From the IMG/VR virus record IMGVR_UViG_2061766007_000327: a DNA stretch of 64,000 bases; one strand, given 5' to 3'. The stretch's first letter is position 1. The number at the start of each line of letters is the position of its first letter. Both the position numbers and the translations under genes were made by a program. Origin of the DNA: an uncultured virus (IMG/VR IMGVR_UViG_2061766007_000327). Lineage: Duplodnaviria > Heunggongvirae > Uroviricota > Caudoviricetes. The notes beneath the pieces were generated by a model. It was not told the origin of the DNA, ran no database searches, and saw nothing but the letters and a program-made list of their open reading frames with translations. This document shows positions 38,386-59,698 of this stretch, in pieces.

Positions 38386-38787
38386 ATGGCAAGATTAGAT
38401 TCTTACGACAGATTACCCGGCGGAATGCGGGAATACTTGTCTTTCAATGATTATCACTTCTCTAAGCCCATGTATATGTGGGCTGTAAGCATGATGAGGG
38501 ATAAAAACGGAAGCAAGGTCGAGCCGATGACAAAGGAGTCTGTGATGGAAATCCTAAAGCGGAACAATGTCGAAATCGAAAAAGACATGGGCTACGACGT
38601 GCCCTTCGTCTTTATGCGCAAAAAGACGGATTCTCTTGGCGGTTCCATCCCTGATGAGGCTCACCTAGCCATGGCGGTCAAGGAGTTCTTCACGGATAAG
38701 GACGGGTACGACACAATGGCATTTGATGAGTTTCTTACAAAACTCAATGCCCTTGGGATTCCCGTAGACTGGTCAAGTATGCTTTAG
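38386..38787 (+). CDS. hypothetical protein
   Basis: YHFSKPM...DKDGY...IPVDWSSML; member of the cassette. Confidence 0.65.
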   Translation: MARLDSYDRLPGGMREYLSFNDYHFSKPMYMWAVSMMRDKNGSKVEPMTKESVMEILKRNNVEIEKDMGYDVPFVFMRKKTDSLGGSIPDEAHLAMAVKEFFTDKDGYDTMAFDEFLTKLNALGIPVDWSSML

Positions 38788-39362
38788 TCGGCATAGCGGA
38801 AGGTGCAACCATGATGTATTTTTTGAGTCCCCTTTGCGCAACGGACAATAGCATACCGATAAAATCCGTCCGCCTCGGCACAATGAAGTGATTTGTAGTA
38901 GGTTTCATTTCCCGAACTATCGGTACAGATAACCGGACGGCTATACCTGCGATACAGTTCTTTCTTTATGGCCACTGCGTGTGGGTTTCTGGCATTCTCG
39001 CTTCTGCATACCCATCTCAAGTTTTCGGCTCTATTATCGTGCCTGACGGCGTTTATGTGGTCAACCTCTTTCCCGGGTTCCGGGAGGCCGTGAAAGGCGG
39101 AACAAACCAGAATGTGTGCGGTAATGCCTTTCACGAACTTATCTTTAGATAAGTGCAAAGATGGATATCCGCTCTGAGACAGGGACTGCCTCATAATATG
39201 CTCCTTGATTGTCCTGGTTGCGCCATAAACTGTCGGTACCATACGAGAAATAGCCTTTATCCTTCCAGTGTTAGAAGCTTGGTAATAACCTTCCCACCCA
39301 GGGATATCCTTCCAAACCTCGCCTGGCATGTCTTCAAGGGACAGATTTTGATACGGTAACAT
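38784..39362 (-). CDS. NUMOD4-HNH homing endonuclease
   Basis: EVWKDIPGWEGYYQASNTGRIK (NUMOD4), VDHINAVRHDNRAENLRW (HNH), C-terminal NUMOD1-like HTH. Confidence 0.9.
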   Translation of the reverse strand: MLPYQNLSLEDMPGEVWKDIPGWEGYYQASNTGRIKAISRMVPTVYGATRTIKEHIMRQSLSQSGYPSLHLSKDKFVKGITAHILVCSAFHGLPEPGKEVDHINAVRHDNRAENLRWVCRSENARNPHAVAIKKELYRRYSRPVICTDSSGNETYYKSLHCAEADGFYRYAIVRCAKGTQKIHHGCTFRYAD

Positions 39363-43412: not shown

Positions 43413-43432
43413 ATCTAAATCAAATTAAAAAG

Positions 43433-43514
43433 AGGGTGCGTACTCGGCGAAGTAAATTAATGTCCTATATCATGAGAAATATTCGCATCACTGCGATGTG
43501 CCTTTCCGCACCCT
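43433..43514 (-). ncRNA. structured intergenic RNA candidate A
   Basis: Outer stem AGGGTGCG/CGCACCCT, GAA/AGTA loop-E-like juxtaposition, inner CGCA-GTGA-TGCG hairpin, 34-nt unpaired segment. Confidence 0.5.
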
Positions 43515-43519
43515 ATTGG

Positions 43520-44236
43520 TTAACAATCAGGGTCAAAATGTTGATAATACTCTGGCTCTTCTTTCACTCCCAATTTCTTAAGGTCAGCGTAAAGATTGGC
43601 AAGAAAGTCTGCCATATCATCACAATAATCTTTTCTCAATGCCGCAACAATAGAGAAGAGTCTATCTATCTGCTCCTCGCTGGGTTTCCAATGAGGTTTG
43701 AGGGATTTGAGCCAAGCAATATCAGATTTTACGGCCTCTATCTTATCATAGTCGGATTTGCATCCCTTTACATATTCCAACGCTTCTAAAACATTAGCAT
43801 AATGTAATCTATCTTCCTCGCTCCACTCTGGCTTCTGCTCTTTCTGCTTCATAGCATCATCCCACCCACGCCAATATGCAGGAGTATCACGGATGTCCGT
43901 ACCATCAGAATCGCTATGTTTTGGGCTTCTATCCTCGCATTTTGCATCTGCCGTGCAATCTGACGAAATAGAATCAGCGGATTTGGGATTTTCTTTCTGC
44001 TTTTCAAGCCAAGCAATATATCTACTTGCTGCTTCTTCGGTAAATGAAATACCACTATTGGAACGACCAATTTTAATGGCATCAATAAGTTGTTTCCTTA
44101 TCCTCTCATCCTCGCTCTCTGCGAGTTCGGGGAAGATTTGTTCTATCTCGTCTACAGATATGTGCATAAGGTTATAACTATCGTGGAGTTCCTTGGCTCG
44201 TTCAAGAGCCTCTTTGTACTTTTCTTCGTAGTTCAT
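43520..44236 (-). CDS. hypothetical protein (YKEALERAK / ESEDERIRK / WKPSEEQ type)
   Basis: Modular phage accessory ORF. Confidence 0.7.
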   Translation of the reverse strand: MNYEEKYKEALERAKELHDSYNLMHISVDEIEQIFPELAESEDERIRKQLIDAIKIGRSNSGISFTEEAASRYIAWLEKQKENPKSADSISSDCTADAKCEDRSPKHSDSDGTDIRDTPAYWRGWDDAMKQKEQKPEWSEEDRLHYANVLEALEYVKGCKSDYDKIEAVKSDIAWLKSLKPHWKPSEEQIDRLFSIVAALRKDYCDDMADFLANLYADLKKLGVKEEPEYYQHFDPDC

Positions 44237-44414: not shown

Positions 44415-44621
44415 TTATAACTGTGGGGAATCTTCGTCACCGTAGAATCTTGAGTGTCGGGCATAGTACCCTTGCAAGGCAATCGCTATGTCCTTATTTA
44501 GTCTTTCATCGGCATACAAAGGTTCAATCTCATCGTGTGCATCATTGTCAAGGATGATCGCTATCTTGCCCTTGTGTCTGCGGATGTTCTCAACTACATT
44601 CCTATCTAATCTGTCTAGCAT
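44415..44621 (-). CDS. hypothetical protein
   Basis: Packed ORF. Confidence 0.5.
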   Translation of the reverse strand: MLDRLDRNVVENIRRHKGKIAIILDNDAHDEIEPLYADERLNKDIAIALQGYYARHSRFYGDEDSPQL

Positions 44622-44875
44622 ATTTCCTTGTTTAAACGATAGACGAGTCCGTCCTTAACGATAACGCATTTATCATTTTCGGACAGTTGAACATTATCAG
44701 GTCTTGCGATCTGCTCTACTTTCGGTCCACCGAAGAGACCTACTCTATGGACTGCGAAAGATATGTCCTTATTCAAGGCTGTCACTCTCGCACAATGATG
44801 GACAGTGCCCTCAAAGAATCTCTGGGCATCTGCTCTGATAAGGCGTAAACGCCATAACGCTTTTATTCTTCTCAT
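44615..44875 (-). CDS. hypothetical protein
   Basis: Packed ORF with A-rich leader. Confidence 0.55.
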   Translation of the reverse strand: MRRIKALWRLRLIRADAQRFFEGTVHHCARVTALNKDISFAVHRVGLFGGPKVEQIARPDNVQLSENDKCVIVKDGLVYRLNKEIC

Positions 44876-44897
44876 ATTTTATTGTGTTAATTCCTTG

Positions 44898-44995
44898 TTC
44901 CCTCCCGGGGAGTCGAACCCCTATTGATTGGCAAGTTAAGGGTGTTTGATATAGCGTGAAAAAGACTTACAGCCACCCGTGTGGCACAGGAGGGA
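44898..44995 (-). ncRNA. tRNA-like RNA with an expanded 28-nt anticodon loop
   Basis: Acceptor TCCCTCC/GGAGGGA, D-like GCCAC-ACGG-GTGGC, stem GTAAGT/ACTTGC, T arm GGGG-TTCGACT-CCCC. Confidence 0.6.
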
Positions 44996-45013
44996 AGCGA
45001 CGCATCACTGCGG

Positions 45014-45388
45014 TTAATCGTCTATTATATCATCCATATCGTATTTATCCGAATCTACCTCCTCGGCATACGCCTCCAGCACCGCCTTCAGAGCAGCCTT
45101 CCAGGCATCGCTGATATTGGCGGCATCGATAGTCGCGATCACATCATCTGAAACAGTCCCGACATCTTGCATATCGCAATACGGAGCAAGACCGACACTA
45201 GTATCTTCACCGGCCTCGAACGAAGCCTGCACCTTGAATTCCTTGGGGACACAATCCGACACCTCGGCCAGCCTATCGAGGACATCCTCCATATAGACTA
45301 ATGCTTCTGCGGTGAAATCACGCGCCCACCAATAACCACCAACCATTCCGTTGCCATCGTAACTTACTCTTCCACTTCTGTAACTCAT
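45014..45388 (-). CDS. acidic hypothetical protein
   Basis: Start MSYRSG; D/E-rich. Confidence 0.6.
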   Translation of the reverse strand: MSYRSGRVSYDGNGMVGGYWWARDFTAEALVYMEDVLDRLAEVSDCVPKEFKVQASFEAGEDTSVGLAPYCDMQDVGTVSDDVIATIDAANISDAWKAALKAVLEAYAEEVDSDKYDMDDIIDD

Positions 45389-45389
45389 A

Positions 45390-46160
45390 TTAATTTTGCC
45401 TCCTGATTTCTTGAATCCACTTCGACAGCGTGCAAGCATTCATCTTGCAACCCTCACGGGTTGAAAATCCCGTCAGTCCCATCTCGTGGAATTCGTTAAA
45501 CTCTCGTAATATATCTTTTTGTAACCGGCCTTTCTGGACCTGCTTCTTGATCCAGCGGTAGCCGTCATTAGATTCACGCCAGGCACGGGCATCGTCAGCC
45601 TTTATCCTCGCCTGGACTGCTGTAGCGGCAGAGACATCGACGCCCTTATCATTACCGAGATGCTTGCGCCAATGCCCGGACTTGGACATAAAGCCGCCGT
45701 CCTTGGCAATCGCTTTCTTTCGCTCTTCAAGAGCCAGTTTCGTATTAATTCTGCCCATAATAGCCTGGCGTTCTGCAACCGCAAAGAGGACCGTAAGAAC
45801 GAACCTATCGGATGCAGGCACATCGCATATAACAATATTCCTTTCCCCGACAGCATCGAGGATTTCAAGAGCCTCTTGTACATTTCTCAAGCGATCAAAC
45901 TTAGAGATGCACAGAACATAGTTATTTTGCTTACACAATTCAATCGCCTCCCAAAGACCCTTACACTGTTTGAGCTTCGTCCCCGAAAACACATCCGTGA
46001 ACATCGCCACGGGGTCACGCCCCATAAACATCTTCGCAATCGCCTCCTGGGCAGACAATCCCAATCCGCTCCGACCCTGGCGGCCGGTAGATACACGCCT
46101 CCAAAGGACATATGGTCTTTGGTCGTGGAACGGAACTATTTCAACATTCTTCTTCGCCAT
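45390..46160 (-). CDS. serine recombinase (resolvase/invertase family)
   Basis: RVSTGRQ..SGLGL.AQ catalytic motif, SKFDRLR, AERQ...RINTKLAL. Confidence 0.85.
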   Translation of the reverse strand: MAKKNVEIVPFHDQRPYVLWRRVSTGRQGRSGLGLSAQEAIAKMFMGRDPVAMFTDVFSGTKLKQCKGLWEAIELCKQNNYVLCISKFDRLRNVQEALEILDAVGERNIVICDVPASDRFVLTVLFAVAERQAIMGRINTKLALEERKKAIAKDGGFMSKSGHWRKHLGNDKGVDVSAATAVQARIKADDARAWRESNDGYRWIKKQVQKGRLQKDILREFNEFHEMGLTGFSTREGCKMNACTLSKWIQEIRRQN

Positions 46161-46680
46161 AGTCTGATAAATATTGCCATTTGTATCCGTGGTGGGTCTT
46201 AAGTTTCCCCTTACAAACCTTGGAGATTTGATTCTTATTAAAGCCCCCCTCTCGCTTCGCCTCAGCTATGGACGACCAAATTTGTATCAACTGATTATCT
46301 TTGGTCAACTGTACCACCCGGAAAGATTTTGCAGCACCGTATCGCTTGCGTGAGATAGGATTCTTTTGGTTCTCACTTTGGTTACACCAGCGGAGATTAT
46401 CCGCTCGATTATTTCTACGATTAGTGTCGATGTGGTCGACAAATGGCTTATTATCGGGATTAGGGATGAAAGCTATCGCAACCAACCGCGCGACCCTACA
46501 ACTTTGAACAGTAGTCCCTTTACATAGGTGAATATAATCATAATCTTTCAAACTAACCCAGGGCGTCATAATCCTTGTCGCCTTTGTATGGTTGTAGTTA
46601 AGACTCCGAACTCTCCCGAGATTACTCACCTCGTATAAGCCTTCATAGCCCACAACTGGTTTCCAAATTTCTTTTTCCAT
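46141..46680 (-). CDS. NUMOD4-HNH homing endonuclease
   Basis: EIWKPVVGYEGLYEVSNLGRVRS, VDHIDTNRRNNRADNLRW, NUMOD1 tail; start MEKEIW. Confidence 0.9.
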   Translation of the reverse strand: MEKEIWKPVVGYEGLYEVSNLGRVRSLNYNHTKATRIMTPWVSLKDYDYIHLCKGTTVQSCRVARLVAIAFIPNPDNKPFVDHIDTNRRNNRADNLRWCNQSENQKNPISRKRYGAAKSFRVVQLTKDNQLIQIWSSIAEAKREGGFNKNQISKVCKGKLKTHHGYKWQYLSDYGEEEC

Positions 46681-46811
46681 TGAACTGATGTTATCAATTA
46701 TACTGATGAAAAAGAAAGCAGGAAGGGCCATCAGTTTACCTTTGTCGCGAGGGGATCAAGTCTCGCTATCCTGCTTCTGTAAATATAGTCAGAAACATTT
46801 GAATATGCAAA
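46681..46811 (-). promoter_or_regulatory. promoter plus structured 5' leader of HNH gene 2
   Basis: TTTG-N20-TATATTTA, stem AAGCAGGA/TCCTGCTT, two inner hairpins, two CATCAGT boxes. Confidence 0.7.
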
Positions 46812-59424: not shown

Positions 59425-59509
59425 GTTTATGAGAATATCCCGCAGTGATGCGCGTACCGTGTTAGTTTTTCATTGTGATTGTTTTACTGGCAGCCGGGAA
59501 AGACCGGCA

Positions 59510-59565
59510 GGCGGGGAAGCGGCGGTTTAGGGCCGCGGTCGGAGGTTCGAATCCTTCCCCCGTTT
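59510..59565 (+). ncRNA. D-armless tRNA-like element
   Basis: GGCGGGG/CCCCGTT acceptor, GCGGC-GGTTTAGG-GCCGC arm, GGAGG-TTCGAAT-CCTTC T arm. Confidence 0.6.
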
Positions 59566-59611
59566 CAAAATTGGAAATGCGTTAATGGGTACGGCGCATG
59601 AGTGGAATAGT

Positions 59612-59678
59612 AGGCGAGTCCTCGTCGGGTGTACCCACCCTCCCCTGGCGGAGGTGCCCGATGGGGGCTTGCCTTTTT
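59612..59678 (+). terminator. long G-U-rich hairpin plus U tract upstream of the helicase gene
   Basis: AGGCGAGTCCTCGTCGGGT pairs with GCCCGATGGGGGCTTGCCT, followed by TTTT. Confidence 0.6.
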
Positions 59679-59698
59679 AGCTGAAAAACCGCAGTTCA

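What the first reader, a model, noticed from the sequence alone, without database searches (positions are those of the whole stretch)
44898..44995. tRNA-shaped RNA whose anticodon loop is expanded to 28 nt
Seen (minus strand): 7-bp acceptor stem with discriminator A, compact D-like hairpin, 6-bp stem GUAAGU/ACUUGC around CUUUUUCACGCUAUAUCAAACACCCUUA, and a T loop UUCGACU. The loop starts C-U-UUU, like tRNA-Lys(UUU). It cannot decode normally. Inference: a natural tRNA scaffold presenting an antisense guide, or a decoy for anticodon nucleases (established: PrrC cleaves tRNA-Lys UUU).
Basis: partly seen in the sequence, partly recalled or inferred. Interest (0 to 1): 0.75.

Follow-up and report, generated by a model that had tools for sequence, protein, structure and literature searches.

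The report
Phage tRNA mimic without working anticodon
A rumen phage carries a small RNA gene that keeps the outer shape of a tRNA but has a scrambled middle, so it cannot read codons and most likely serves as a cutting signal or stable scaffold rather than as a tRNA.

Summary
On the minus strand at 44995-44898 there is a 7-bp acceptor stem, a compact D-like hairpin, a 6-bp stem around a 28-nt loop, a T arm (UUCGACU) and discriminator A. ARAGORN and Rfam call nothing here.

The window is a siphovirus-like phage contig. Its nearest cultured relatives are Parabacteroides phages.

I found 16 distinct relatives in viral and metagenome contigs. They conserve the following, with compensatory changes:
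- the acceptor stem;
- the T stem;
- the D-like hairpin, whose loop always contains GG;

The middle is not conserved. The 6-bp stem and 28-nt loop are specific to the window lineage. The interior folds no better than shuffled sequence. The "UUU anticodon" run has 5 or 6 U in near-identical copies.

So this is a non-decoding, tRNA-derived mimic, not a tRNA-Lys look-alike and not a simple decaying pseudogene. It sits in line between genes, and the hairpin starts 1-2 nt after a stop codon. My best guess, which is inferred, is that host RNase P and 3' tRNA-processing enzymes cut it out of the polycistronic mRNA. The guide and decoy readings are neither supported nor excluded. It is a new variant of a known kind, of moderate interest.

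The parts
45001..45012 (-). Leader hairpin CGCA-GUGA-UGCG: a 4-bp stem with a GNRA tetraloop. It starts 1 nt after the stop codon of ORF 45014-45439.
   Evidence: Sequence read. In relatives the loop is GUGA, GAGA, GCGA or GGGA. L038 has the compensatory form CGCG..CGCG. It is present in 12 of the 13 family loci that were found through the 3' 21-mer alone.
44996..45000 (-). Spacer UCGCU between the hairpin and the acceptor stem. The predicted RNase P cut lies between 44996 and 44995; this is inferred.
   Evidence: Spacer length is 3-7 nt in relatives. The cleavage itself was not tested.
44989..44995 (-). Acceptor stem, 5' strand UCCCUCC.
   Evidence: Pairs 7 of 7 with 44899-44905. Relatives L061, L079 and L080 have other, fully paired acceptor sequences. 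6 of the 7 pairs show changes on both sides.
44972..44985 (-). Compact D-like hairpin GCCAC-ACGG-GUGGC.
   Evidence: There are 8 different stem sequences among 14 relatives, all paired, with 3-6 nt loops that always contain GG. 5 of 5 pairs show changes on both sides.
44922..44971 (-). Variable central region of 50 nt. In this lineage it holds the stem GUAAGU/ACUUGC (44970-44965 with 44936-44931), the 28-nt loop (44964-44937) and the linker CAAUCAAUA (44930-44922).
   Evidence: Length is 36-66 nt in relatives. It folds no better than shuffles, z from -0.28 to +1.89. The closing stem is not conserved. The U run 44959-44963 varies in length.
44907..44921 (-). T arm GGGG-UUCGACU-CCCC.
   Evidence: The loop is UUCGA(C/U/G)U in all relatives. 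Other T stems, GUGG/CCAC and CCGG/CCGG, occur in L079 and L080.
44898..44906 (-). Unpaired G (44906), acceptor 3' strand GGAGGGA (44905-44899) and discriminator A (44898). No CCA is encoded.
   Evidence: The discriminator is A in the window-type relatives and G in the other subfamily.
44615..44875 (-). Downstream 86-aa ORF of a small phage protein family that usually lies downstream of the element.
   Evidence: tblastn finds homologues downstream in 8 of the 16 relative loci searched; several of those loci are too short downstream to tell. The model has pLDDT 95.6 and no PDB fold match at E<=0.001. There is no Pfam or PHROG family.
45014..45439 (-). Upstream 141-aa ORF whose stop codon abuts the hairpin.
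   Evidence: Homologues lie upstream of the element in L006, L038 and L042. There is no Pfam or PHROG family.

Best explanation
This is a phage-encoded tRNA mimic derived from a tRNA gene, and it does not decode.

**What selection keeps.** Selection preserves only what tRNA-processing enzymes read: a 7-bp acceptor stem stacked on a T arm, and a GG-containing D-like loop that can form the tRNA elbow with the T loop. A short GNRA hairpin lies just upstream. The former anticodon arm has decayed into a variable, unstructured stretch of 36-66 nt.

**Proposed mechanism (inferred).** The element lies in line between two genes on the same strand, and I saw no promoter or terminator of its own. I therefore infer that it is transcribed as part of the polycistronic mRNA and then cut out:
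- host RNase P would cut between 44996 and 44995;
- a 3' tRNA-processing nuclease would cut after 44898.

The upstream mRNA would then end in the GNRA hairpin that sits directly behind its stop codon. The downstream gene would get a new 5' end. A stable tRNA-shaped small RNA would be released.

**Shown:** the anatomy, the conservation and covariation of the scaffold, the decay of the middle, and the position relative to the genes.

**Inferred:** co-transcription, cleavage by RNase P and a 3' nuclease, any stabilising role of the hairpin, and any further role of the released RNA.
For: **Anatomy and fold:**

**Phage context**
- Terminase, portal, head and tape-measure genes are present.
- The closest terminases are those of Parabacteroides phages, 40% identity.

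**Relatives**
- 13 of 17 metagenome loci and 4 of 4 viral loci found with the 3' 21-mer belong to the family.
- Three more relatives with different acceptor stems came from a hairpin-plus-T-arm pattern.

**Covariation of the four scaffold helices**
- 95.9% of cells pair.
- 15 of 20 pairs change on both sides.
- 0 of 500 shuffles reach the score.
- Slid controls stay at or below 0.107, against 0.374 observed.

**D-like hairpin:** 8 stem variants, always with GG in the loop.

**The middle is free to vary:**

**Placement**
- The hairpin begins 1-2 nt after the stop codon of an open frame of at least 87 codons in 9 of 16 loci.
- It begins right after another tRNA-like element in 4 of 16.

**The hairpin goes with tRNA-type genes in phages generally**
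- 34 viral loci match hairpin + 62-92 nt + T arm, against 1 for the same pattern with the hairpin read backwards.
- In 7 of the 21 loci checked it precedes a canonical tRNA gene: Arg, Glu twice, Thr, Pro, Leu and one of unassigned type. In an eighth locus it is the variable arm of a tRNA-Leu.

**Second copy in the window:** a smaller tRNA-like element at 59510-59565 follows the same hairpin.

**Established knowledge (recalled, not tested here)**
- RNase P recognises the acceptor/T-arm stack and the elbow, not the anticodon arm.
- tRNA-like 't-elements' shape mRNA ends in plant mitochondria (PMC1920247; search listing and abstract start only).
Against: **No direct evidence of transcription ends or cleavage**
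- The only RNA data were assembled contigs. Two runs of a single study cover just the downstream ORF (44578-44878) at depth 2-3.3 and do not cover the element.
- That is compatible with the model but proves nothing.

**A pure cutting signal would not need the middle**
- It would not need 36-66 nt of interior.
- The interior also keeps subfamily-specific motifs: UUUCA..CGC and ACUU(U)GCC in one subfamily, AAAGCUGA, AUGUCA and UUGCAA in the other.
- The whole element is about 98% identical between the window and L035, although the neighbouring proteins share only 48% identity.
- This points either to a sequence-dependent role for the middle or to recent exchange of the element between phages.

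**Other weak points**
- A 4-bp hairpin is a weak barrier to exonucleases.
- The promoter scan covers sigma-70-type sites only, not Bacteroidota-type promoters.
- Most relatives were found through a fixed 3' 21-mer, so the invariance of their acceptor and T arm is built in. Acceptor covariation rests on L061, L079, L080 and the weakly scoring L052.
- The alignment used for counting was fitted to the model, which leans towards the structure.
Confidence: 0.5

Rival explanations
1. It is a trans-acting RNA on a tRNA scaffold. The tRNA-like frame gives processing and stability. The unstructured interior is the working part: a pairing guide, a protein-binding site, or a sponge or decoy for a host factor. 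This is.
For: - The interior folds no better, and mostly worse, than shuffles: z is above 0 in 13 of 14. That suits a single-stranded presented segment.
- Interiors come in discrete, internally conserved types.
- The window and L035 elements are about 98% identical next to proteins of only 48% identity.
- Other phages of the group carry tRNA-shaped RNAs whose anticodon arm is replaced by a long stem with a conserved loop motif.
Against: - No complement of 10 nt or more to the interior occurs elsewhere in the window, beyond single chance words.
- Host targets could not be searched.
- An anticodon-nuclease decoy needs a conserved anticodon stem-loop, which is absent.
- Smaller relatives work with a 4-nt or 12-20-nt linker in place of the interior.
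- High identity with L035 can also come from recent recombination.
Confidence: 0.2
2. It is a working tRNA: either a decoder with an expanded loop, or a pre-tRNA whose extra 21 nt are removed as an intron. The 'enigmatic introns' reported in tRNAs of Prevotella megaphages would be the precedent.
For: - The scaffold is tRNA-like.
- ARAGORN calls two relatives, L030 and L038, as 93-95-nt tRNA-Ile(GAU) with a 7-nt loop.
- Oversized phage tRNAs with inserts are described for Lak megaphages of Prevotella (bioRxiv 10.1101/356790; passages read).
Against: - ARAGORN gives 0 and Rfam tRNA gives no hit for the window copy.
- Rfam also finds no group I intron, and 28 nt is far too short for one.
- No excision of 21 nt leaves a purine at position 37 (reasoned from the sequence).
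- The U run varies between 5 and 6 U in near-identical copies.
- The stem closing the loop is not conserved.
- The D arm is a 3-5-bp hairpin with a 3-6-nt loop.
- The called anticodon loops in L030 and L038 have U at position 37.
Confidence: 0.04
3. It is a decaying tRNA pseudogene with no function of its own. It persists because it lies in a recombination-prone junction.
For: - The anticodon arm has decayed.
- Phage genomes are mosaic around the element.
- One relative, L031, is a fusion of two tRNA-like genes at the T loop.
Against: - Compensatory changes keep four helices paired across relatives whose neighbouring proteins share 42-56% identity.
- The leader hairpin is conserved with the element.
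- A hairpin 1-2 nt after a stop codon recurs behind three different upstream genes.
Confidence: 0.1
4. It works as DNA: a phage attachment site copying the 3' end of a host tRNA gene, or a target or boundary sequence for recombination or homing endonucleases.
For: - A small serine recombinase gene (45390-46160) and an HNH homing-endonuclease gene (46141-46731) lie just upstream.
- Homology between the window and L035 is limited to about 130 nt at the element.
Against: - The 3' 21-mer occurs in only 3 of 185,579 species genomes. All 3 are unrelated MAGs, and none is called a tRNA by ARAGORN.
- An attachment site needs only the 3' part of a tRNA, yet the 5' strand and the D-like hairpin covary.
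- The recombinase has 256 aa, the size of a resolvase or invertase.
- The recombinase is not a constant neighbour: L001 and L002 have a methyltransferase-like gene and a small protein upstream instead, by my reading of the translations.
Confidence: 0.08

Closest known systems
Canonical tRNA (Rfam RF00005), most like tRNA-Glu(UUC)
   Same: - 7-bp acceptor stem, discriminator base and T arm with UUCRANY loop.
- GG in the D-like loop.
- U at position 8.
- The UUUCAC motif in the interior resembles the tRNA-Glu anticodon loop seen in phage tRNA-Glu genes that follow the same hairpin.
   Different: - No 5-bp stem with 7-nt loop anticodon arm.
- The D arm is a tight hairpin.
- A 9-nt linker precedes the T stem.
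- ARAGORN does not call it, and it has no Rfam tRNA hit.
tRNA-like processing signals in longer transcripts: plant mitochondrial t-elements; mascRNA at the end of MALAT1
   Same: A tRNA-shaped element inside a longer transcript. Its removal by RNase P and RNase Z would create the mRNA ends, and a protective structure lies just upstream of the cut. This is a functional analogy. It is recalled, except that the t-element paper PMC1920247 appeared in a search listing.
   Different: - Those examples are eukaryotic or organellar.
- Here the host is bacterial and the element is phage-borne.
- Processing was not tested.
Bacterial and phage Y-RNA-like YrlA tRNA mimics
   Same: - A non-decoding RNA with T-arm, D-arm and acceptor-like features.
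- One YrlA with a 7-bp acceptor-like stem is cut by RNase P and receives CCA (PMC4201824; passages read).
   Different: - In YrlA the RNA ends form the Ro60-binding stem, and the genes lie next to Ro60.
- Here the ends form the acceptor stem.
- No Rfam Y-RNA hit.
- No Ro60-type family among the window ORFs scanned: 45 against Pfam and 20 against PHROGs.
Oversized tRNAs with 'enigmatic introns' in Lak megaphages of Prevotella
   Same: - Phages of gut Bacteroidales.
- tRNA-shaped genes with extra sequence in the anticodon-loop region that bacterial tRNA finders miss (bioRxiv 10.1101/356790; passages read).
   Different: - Those genes regain a normal anticodon loop when the insert is removed, and insert-free alleles exist.
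- Here no excision restores a normal loop, and the stem is not conserved.
- The supplementary tables of that preprint could not be seen.
tRNA-like domain of tmRNA
   Same: Acceptor stem plus T arm plus a reduced D region, with a long non-tRNA insert between them.
   Different: - The third acceptor pair is C-G, not G-U.
- No conserved tag reading frame: the frame that ends at UAA in the window is shifted by the extra U in L035.
- No pseudoknots.
- ARAGORN calls no tmRNA.
Engineered 'tRNA scaffold' for recombinant RNA expression
   Same: A foreign RNA replaces the anticodon arm of a tRNA, so that cellular tRNA enzymes process and stabilise it (recalled; a methods paper, PMC3753655, appeared in the listing).
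   Different: That scaffold is a laboratory design. Whether the natural interior here is a payload is unknown.

Membership tests
Canonical tRNA | 7-bp acceptor stem with a discriminator base. | tested here: met
   UCCCUCC pairs with GGAGGGA and is followed by A. The stem covaries in relatives.
Canonical tRNA | T arm with a UUCRANY loop. | tested here: met
   GGGG-UUCGACU-CCCC. A 5th pair would be an A.G mismatch.
Canonical tRNA | D arm with a 3-4-bp stem, a 7-11-nt loop and G18 G19. | tested here: inconclusive
   The loop always contains GG, but the arm is a 3-5-bp hairpin with a 3-6-nt loop.
Canonical tRNA | Anticodon arm: 5-bp stem, 7-nt loop, U33, purine 37. | tested here: not met
   The window has a 28-nt loop. 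The stem is not conserved. The interior is unstructured.
Canonical tRNA | Detected by tRNA models. | tested here: not met
   ARAGORN finds 0 in the window. Rfam tRNA gives no hit at E<=10. ARAGORN called 2 of the 12 family loci given to it.
tmRNA | G3:U70 pair, a tag reading frame and pseudoknots. | tested here: not met
   The third pair is C3-G70. ARAGORN calls no tmRNA. There is no Rfam hit. The frame is not conserved because of the extra U in L035.
tRNA with a group I or bulge-helix-bulge intron | An intron whose removal restores a 7-nt anticodon loop, with a catalytic core or a bulge-helix-bulge motif. | tested here: not met
   No Rfam intron hit. 28 nt is too short for a group I intron. 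All possible excisions leave U at position 37 (reasoned). No conserved helix at the boundaries.
YrlA / bacterial Y RNA | A Ro60-binding stem formed by the RNA ends, and a neighbouring Ro60 gene. | tested here: not met
   No Rfam hit. No such protein family among the window ORFs scanned. Not every small ORF was scanned.
Phage attachment site within a tRNA gene | Identity with the 3' part of a host tRNA gene, and a nearby integrase. | tested here: not met
   The 21-mer occurs in 3 of 185,579 species genomes, and none of the 3 is a called tRNA. Only a 256-aa resolvase-type recombinase is nearby.
tRNA-like processing element (t-element / mascRNA type) | Lies inside a longer transcript and is cut by RNase P and RNase Z. 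| not testable with these tools
   The in-line position between same-strand genes is shown. Only assembled RNA contigs were available, and they cannot show RNA ends.

The most novel reading that the evidence does not exclude
Phages of gut Bacteroidales, and other phages, use a two-part module. It consists of a GNRA leader hairpin and a stripped-down tRNA frame into which exchangeable single-stranded cassettes are inserted. This would be a natural counterpart of the laboratory tRNA scaffold. Host tRNA enzymes would mature and stabilise the RNA. The cassette would then act in trans on a host or rival-phage target, as a guide, sponge or decoy. The discrete interior types would be different specificities that are swapped between phages by recombination at the conserved frame.
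Probability: 0.15. Interest if true: 0.8.

Novelty: new variant of a known kind. Interest (0 to 1): 0.5.

Why it matters
If the element is a processing signal, this phage group uses tRNA mimicry to punctuate its mRNAs, a strategy known mainly from organelles and a few eukaryotic long RNAs.

If the interior is a payload, it would be a natural tRNA-scaffolded small RNA.

Either way there are practical consequences:
- The family and its leader hairpin are missed by ARAGORN and Rfam, so such genes are currently left blank or mis-annotated in phage genomes.
- The hairpin's link to tRNA-type genes (34 loci against 1 in the control) is a concrete, testable new motif.

Tried and rejected
**Searches of the window's own genome**
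- These were not possible: no genome is held.

**Similarity and prior-findings searches that found nothing**
- blastn of 44500-45500 against 50,697 phage records: no match.
- Earlier findings of this scan, searched by sequence: nothing.
- The cultured relative Parabacteroides phage PF672P1 has neither the element (model R1, E<=10) nor the hairpin. No cultured model was found.

**Targets of the interior**
- A search for a complement or repeat of the interior within the window returned only single 10-mers.

**Expression**
- Two metatranscriptome runs from a single study hold contigs only over the downstream ORF, 44578-44878.
- One run labelled RNA but probably DNA has a contig over 44959-45190.
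- None of these shows RNA ends, and the element's lack of RNA cover proves nothing.
- In that probably-DNA run, two contigs join 44922/44924 to 44992/44988. I read these as relatives that share only the conserved ends.

**The downstream protein family**
- 36 representatives.
- Confident model, pLDDT 95.6.
- No PDB fold match at E<=0.001.
- No usable protein-atlas hit.
- It gives no clue to the RNA's role.

**Promoters and terminators**
- The sigma-70 promoter and terminator scan shows nothing at the element. It does not cover Bacteroidota-type promoters.

**A pattern that was too loose**
- Hairpin plus TCCCTCC without a T arm gave 15 loci.
- I estimated about a dozen chance hits, so the loci without a T arm were not counted as family.
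- L008, L011, L018 and L019 have a short CCCUCC/GGGAGG hairpin, and two of them score weakly with the model. Their relation to the family is open.

**Alignment**
- MAFFT alignments A2 and A3 misaligned the helices. I replaced them with alignments made against a covariance model.

**Literature**
- Searches found no description of this family or of the hairpin. This covers only the held open-access library.
Full report
**The observation**

It holds:
- UCCCUCC pairing with GGAGGGA, followed by discriminator A;
- the hairpin GCCAC-ACGG-GUGGC;
- the stem GUAAGU/ACUUGC around a 28-nt loop;
- the T arm GGGG-UUCGACU-CCCC.

RNAfold gives the same fold at -30.8 kcal/mol. This is not exceptional on its own: z = -1.83, and 8 of 200 shuffles fold as well. 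ARAGORN finds no tRNA or tmRNA in the 64-kb window. Rfam finds nothing at gathering score in the window. It gives only three weak, unrelated hits at E<=10 in 44700-45200. One feature was missed: five bases upstream lies the hairpin CGCA-GUGA-UGCG (45012-45001), a 4-bp stem with a GNRA tetraloop.

**Context**

The window is a tailed-phage contig.
- It carries terminase, portal, major head and tape-measure genes on the plus strand. A long block of small minus-strand genes follows.
- No host genome is held.
- The closest terminases in the phage collection belong to Parabacteroides phages PF672P1 and PF672P2, at 40% identity, followed by Bacteroides and Phocaeicola phages.
- Public runs that hold the region are labelled bovine gut or bovine metagenome. 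Only four were laid.
- The element fills the gap between ORF 45014-45439 and ORF 44615-44875, both on the minus strand.
- Just upstream lie a 256-aa resolvase-type recombinase gene and an I-HmuI-like HNH endonuclease gene.
- No RNA-repair or tRNA-enzyme gene appeared among the 45 ORFs scanned against Pfam.

**Relatives**

- Exact-pattern scans with the 3' 21-mer (T loop to acceptor) found 4 viral loci and 17 metagenome loci. Of the 17, 13 belong to the family. The other 4 are a genuine tRNA-Glu(UUC) in a tRNA array (L034) and three unrelated sequences.
- This gave 14 distinct family sequences including the window, plus L031, a fusion of an upstream tRNA-like gene with the element's 3' end at the T loop.
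- These relatives share the 3' strand by construction, so I also searched for the leader hairpin followed 62-92 nt later by a T-arm motif. That gave 34 viral loci. The same pattern with the hairpin read backwards gave 1.
- Among the 34 are three more long elements with the same layout but different acceptor stems:
  - L061: GCGCGGG/CCCGCGC;
  - L079: UCCACGG/CCGUGGA, with T stem GUGG/CCAC;
  - L080: UCCCUCA/UGAGGGA, with T stem CCGG/CCGG.
- In 7 of the 21 loci checked, the hairpin also lies upstream of a canonical phage tRNA gene: Arg, Glu twice, Thr, Pro, Leu and one of unassigned type. In one further locus it is simply the variable arm of a tRNA-Leu.

**What is conserved**

I built a covariance model from the window, L035 and L041, with only the four scaffold helices marked. 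It aligned 18 sequences.
- 95.9% of cells form standard pairs, against 80.4% in shuffles.
- 15 of 20 pairs show changes on both sides.
- The covariation score is 0.374 against 0.103. No shuffle of 500 reaches it, and slid partners give at most 0.107.
- Pairs with changes on both sides, by helix: leader hairpin 2 of 4, acceptor 6 of 7, D-like hairpin 5 of 5, T stem 2 of 4.

Two caveats apply. The alignment was fitted to the model. For 14 rows the acceptor and T arm are fixed by how they were found.

Independent of the model, a simple hairpin finder shows 8 different D-like stems among the 14 sequences. All are paired, with 3-6-nt loops that always contain GG: ACGG, CGG, GCAGG, ACGGA, UGGU and GUGG. 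That fits a D-loop/T-loop elbow. This tertiary contact is an inference from tRNA knowledge and was not tested.

**What is not conserved**

The segment between the D-like hairpin and the T stem is 36-66 nt long.
- The whole interior between the acceptor 5' strand and the T stem (D-like hairpin plus this segment) folds no better than dinucleotide shuffles. z runs from -0.28 to +1.89 and is above 0 in 13 of 14.
- The window's 6-bp closing stem is matched or beaten by 4% of shuffles of its own sequence. It is kept only in the near-identical L035.
- In the other 15 relatives the best stem in that position is at chance level. This includes L041, the closest diverged copy, with only 3 bp.
- The U run read as a UUU anticodon has 5 U in the window and 6 U in L035. 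A 17.8-kb DNA contig of run X3 also has 6 U.
- Relatives share UUUCA(C/U) followed by CGC or GCU, and ACUU(U)GCC, in one subfamily. The other subfamily shares AAAGCUGA, AUGUCA and UUGCAA.
- UUUCAC resembles the anticodon loop of the two phage tRNA-Glu(UUC) genes found behind the same hairpin. Descent from a tRNA-Glu-like gene is therefore plausible but unproven.
- Two relatives, L030 and L038, still have a 5-bp stem with a 7-nt loop. ARAGORN calls them tRNA-Ile(GAU) of 93-95 nt, but with U at position 37 and a long unstructured segment of 23-24 nt after the stem.

**Placement and mosaicism**

- In 9 of 16 loci the hairpin begins 1-2 nt after the stop codon of an open frame of at least 87 codons.
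- In 4 of 16 it follows another tRNA-like element. The remaining 3 loci are too short to judge.
- The upstream genes belong to at least three unrelated families, while the downstream 86-aa family recurs in 8 loci.
- The window and L035 elements differ at 2 positions, yet local alignment stops at the element's edges (45026-44897). The downstream proteins share only 48% identity.
- In L041 the downstream protein is 100% identical, but the 5' half of the element is only 77-82% identical.
- The element therefore behaves as a separate module that recombines independently of its neighbours.

**Other tRNA-shaped RNAs in the group**

- The window has a second, 56-nt element at 59510-59565 on the plus strand. 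It has an acceptor stem, one GG-loop hairpin, a 4-nt linker and a T arm. Rfam tRNA scores it 23.6 bits, below the 29-bit cut-off.
- It lies 57 nt after a second exact copy of the hairpin. A homologous arrangement occurs in L039.
- Related phages also carry a tRNA-like gene that passes the Rfam tRNA cut-off at 31-37 bits. Its anticodon loop is replaced by 29-47 nt that form a long covarying stem with a conserved loop motif.
- The anticodon-less tRNA shape is thus a recurring theme in these phages, not a one-off.

**How it most likely works**

Selection keeps the acceptor/T-arm stack, the elbow and a leader hairpin, and lets the anticodon arm decay. From established tRNA biochemistry (recalled), those are the parts that RNase P, 3' tRNA nucleases and the CCA-adding enzyme recognise.

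The element is in line with its neighbours, and no promoter or terminator was detected. The scan was limited to sigma-70-type sites.

I therefore favour a tRNA-like punctuation element:
- it is cut out of the polycistronic transcript;
- the upstream mRNA is left ending in the hairpin directly behind its stop codon;
- a stable small RNA is released.

The only expression data, assembled RNA contigs from one study, cover the downstream ORF up to 44871-44878 and not the element. This is compatible with the model but carries little weight.

The main tension is the interior. It is longer than a cutting signal needs and keeps type-specific motifs. A trans-acting scaffolded RNA remains a serious rival.

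**Rejected or weakened readings**

- A decoding tRNA or intron-bearing tRNA fails on the loop, on position 37, on the indel in the U run and on stem conservation.
- An anticodon-nuclease decoy fails because the anticodon stem-loop is the least conserved part.
- A host-tRNA attachment site is not supported. The 21-mer occurs in only 3 of 185,579 species genomes, all unrelated MAGs and none a called tRNA. The 5' strand also covaries.
- A plain pseudogene is hard to square with the compensatory changes.

**Novelty**

tRNA mimics are known. Examples are tmRNA, YrlA, plant-virus tRNA-like ends, t-elements and mascRNA. Oversized tRNAs with unexplained inserts have been reported in Prevotella megaphages.

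I found no description of this family or of the CGCAGNGAUGCG leader hairpin in six literature searches of the held library. Rfam has no model that matches.

I rate it a new variant of a known kind, of moderate interest. The interest would be higher if the interior proves to be a functional payload.

Noticed in passing
window 59441-59565 (+): A second tRNA-like element. It is 56 nt long, at 59510-59565: acceptor GGCGGGG/CCCCGUU, one hairpin with a GG loop, and T arm GGAGG-UUCGAAU-CCUUC. Rfam tRNA scores it 23.6 bits, below the 29-bit cut-off. It is preceded by an exact copy of the leader hairpin (59441-59452) and by a hairpin GCCGG-GAAAGA-CCGGC (59493-59508). A homologous arrangement is seen in L039. 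The whole 59425-59698 intergenic region looks structured.
   Followed up: partly
window 43420-43520 (-): A third exact copy of CGCAGTGATGCG (43495-43484). It lies inside a long-range 7-bp stem, GGGUGCG...CGCACCC, that is followed by UCUUUUU, 24 nt after the stop codon of ORF 43520-44236. There is no T arm here. The scan flags the small hairpin as terminator-like.
   Followed up: partly
viral loci L051-L084, control L086: The hairpin CGCAGNGAUGCG lies 62-92 nt upstream of a T-arm motif in 34 viral loci, against 1 for the reversed-hairpin control. In 7 of the 21 loci checked it precedes a canonical tRNA gene (Arg, Glu, Thr, Pro, Leu and one unassigned). It also precedes several tRNA-like elements that ARAGORN does not call. 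In L078 it flanks both sides of a minihelix-like element that ends in ACCA.
   Followed up: partly
L002:1310-1406, L039:1127-1223, L001:930-1037, L030:817-906: Another tRNA-shaped gene in related phages. It passes the Rfam tRNA cut-off in three of the four loci, at 31-37 bits. Its anticodon loop is replaced by 29-47 nt that form a long covarying stem with a conserved loop motif, AAUCCGGAU(U)GCAAGCG. ARAGORN either misses it or reports a 4-base anticodon.
   Followed up: partly
L031 (metagenome contig, 701-721 region): A fusion of the upstream tRNA-like gene with the 3' end of the element, joined in the shared T-loop sequence. It looks like a deletion by recombination between tandem tRNA-like genes.
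   Followed up: no
window 38784-39362 (-), 46141-46731 (-), 45390-46160 (-): Two I-HmuI-like HNH homing-endonuclease genes (NUMOD4 + HNH_3) and a 256-aa resolvase-type serine recombinase lie in the block of small minus-strand genes. One endonuclease gene and the recombinase gene lie just upstream of the element.
   Followed up: no
window 44615-44875 (-): The 86-aa protein downstream of the element belongs to a small phage family of 36 representatives. Its model is very confident (pLDDT 95.6): one long helix followed by four short strands. It has no PDB fold match, no Pfam family and no PHROG family.
   Followed up: yes
L008, L011, L018, L019 (viral contigs): The same leader hairpin is followed by TCCCTCC, which pairs directly with GGGAGGG across a 10-nt loop just upstream of an ORF. 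This may be a minimal relative without the tRNA-like interior, or an unrelated element that masks a ribosome-binding site.
   Followed up: no
window 44922-44992, run X18: Two contigs of a run labelled RNA but probably DNA match only the conserved ends of the element and skip 63-69 nt of its interior. I read them as relatives with a different interior.
   Followed up: no
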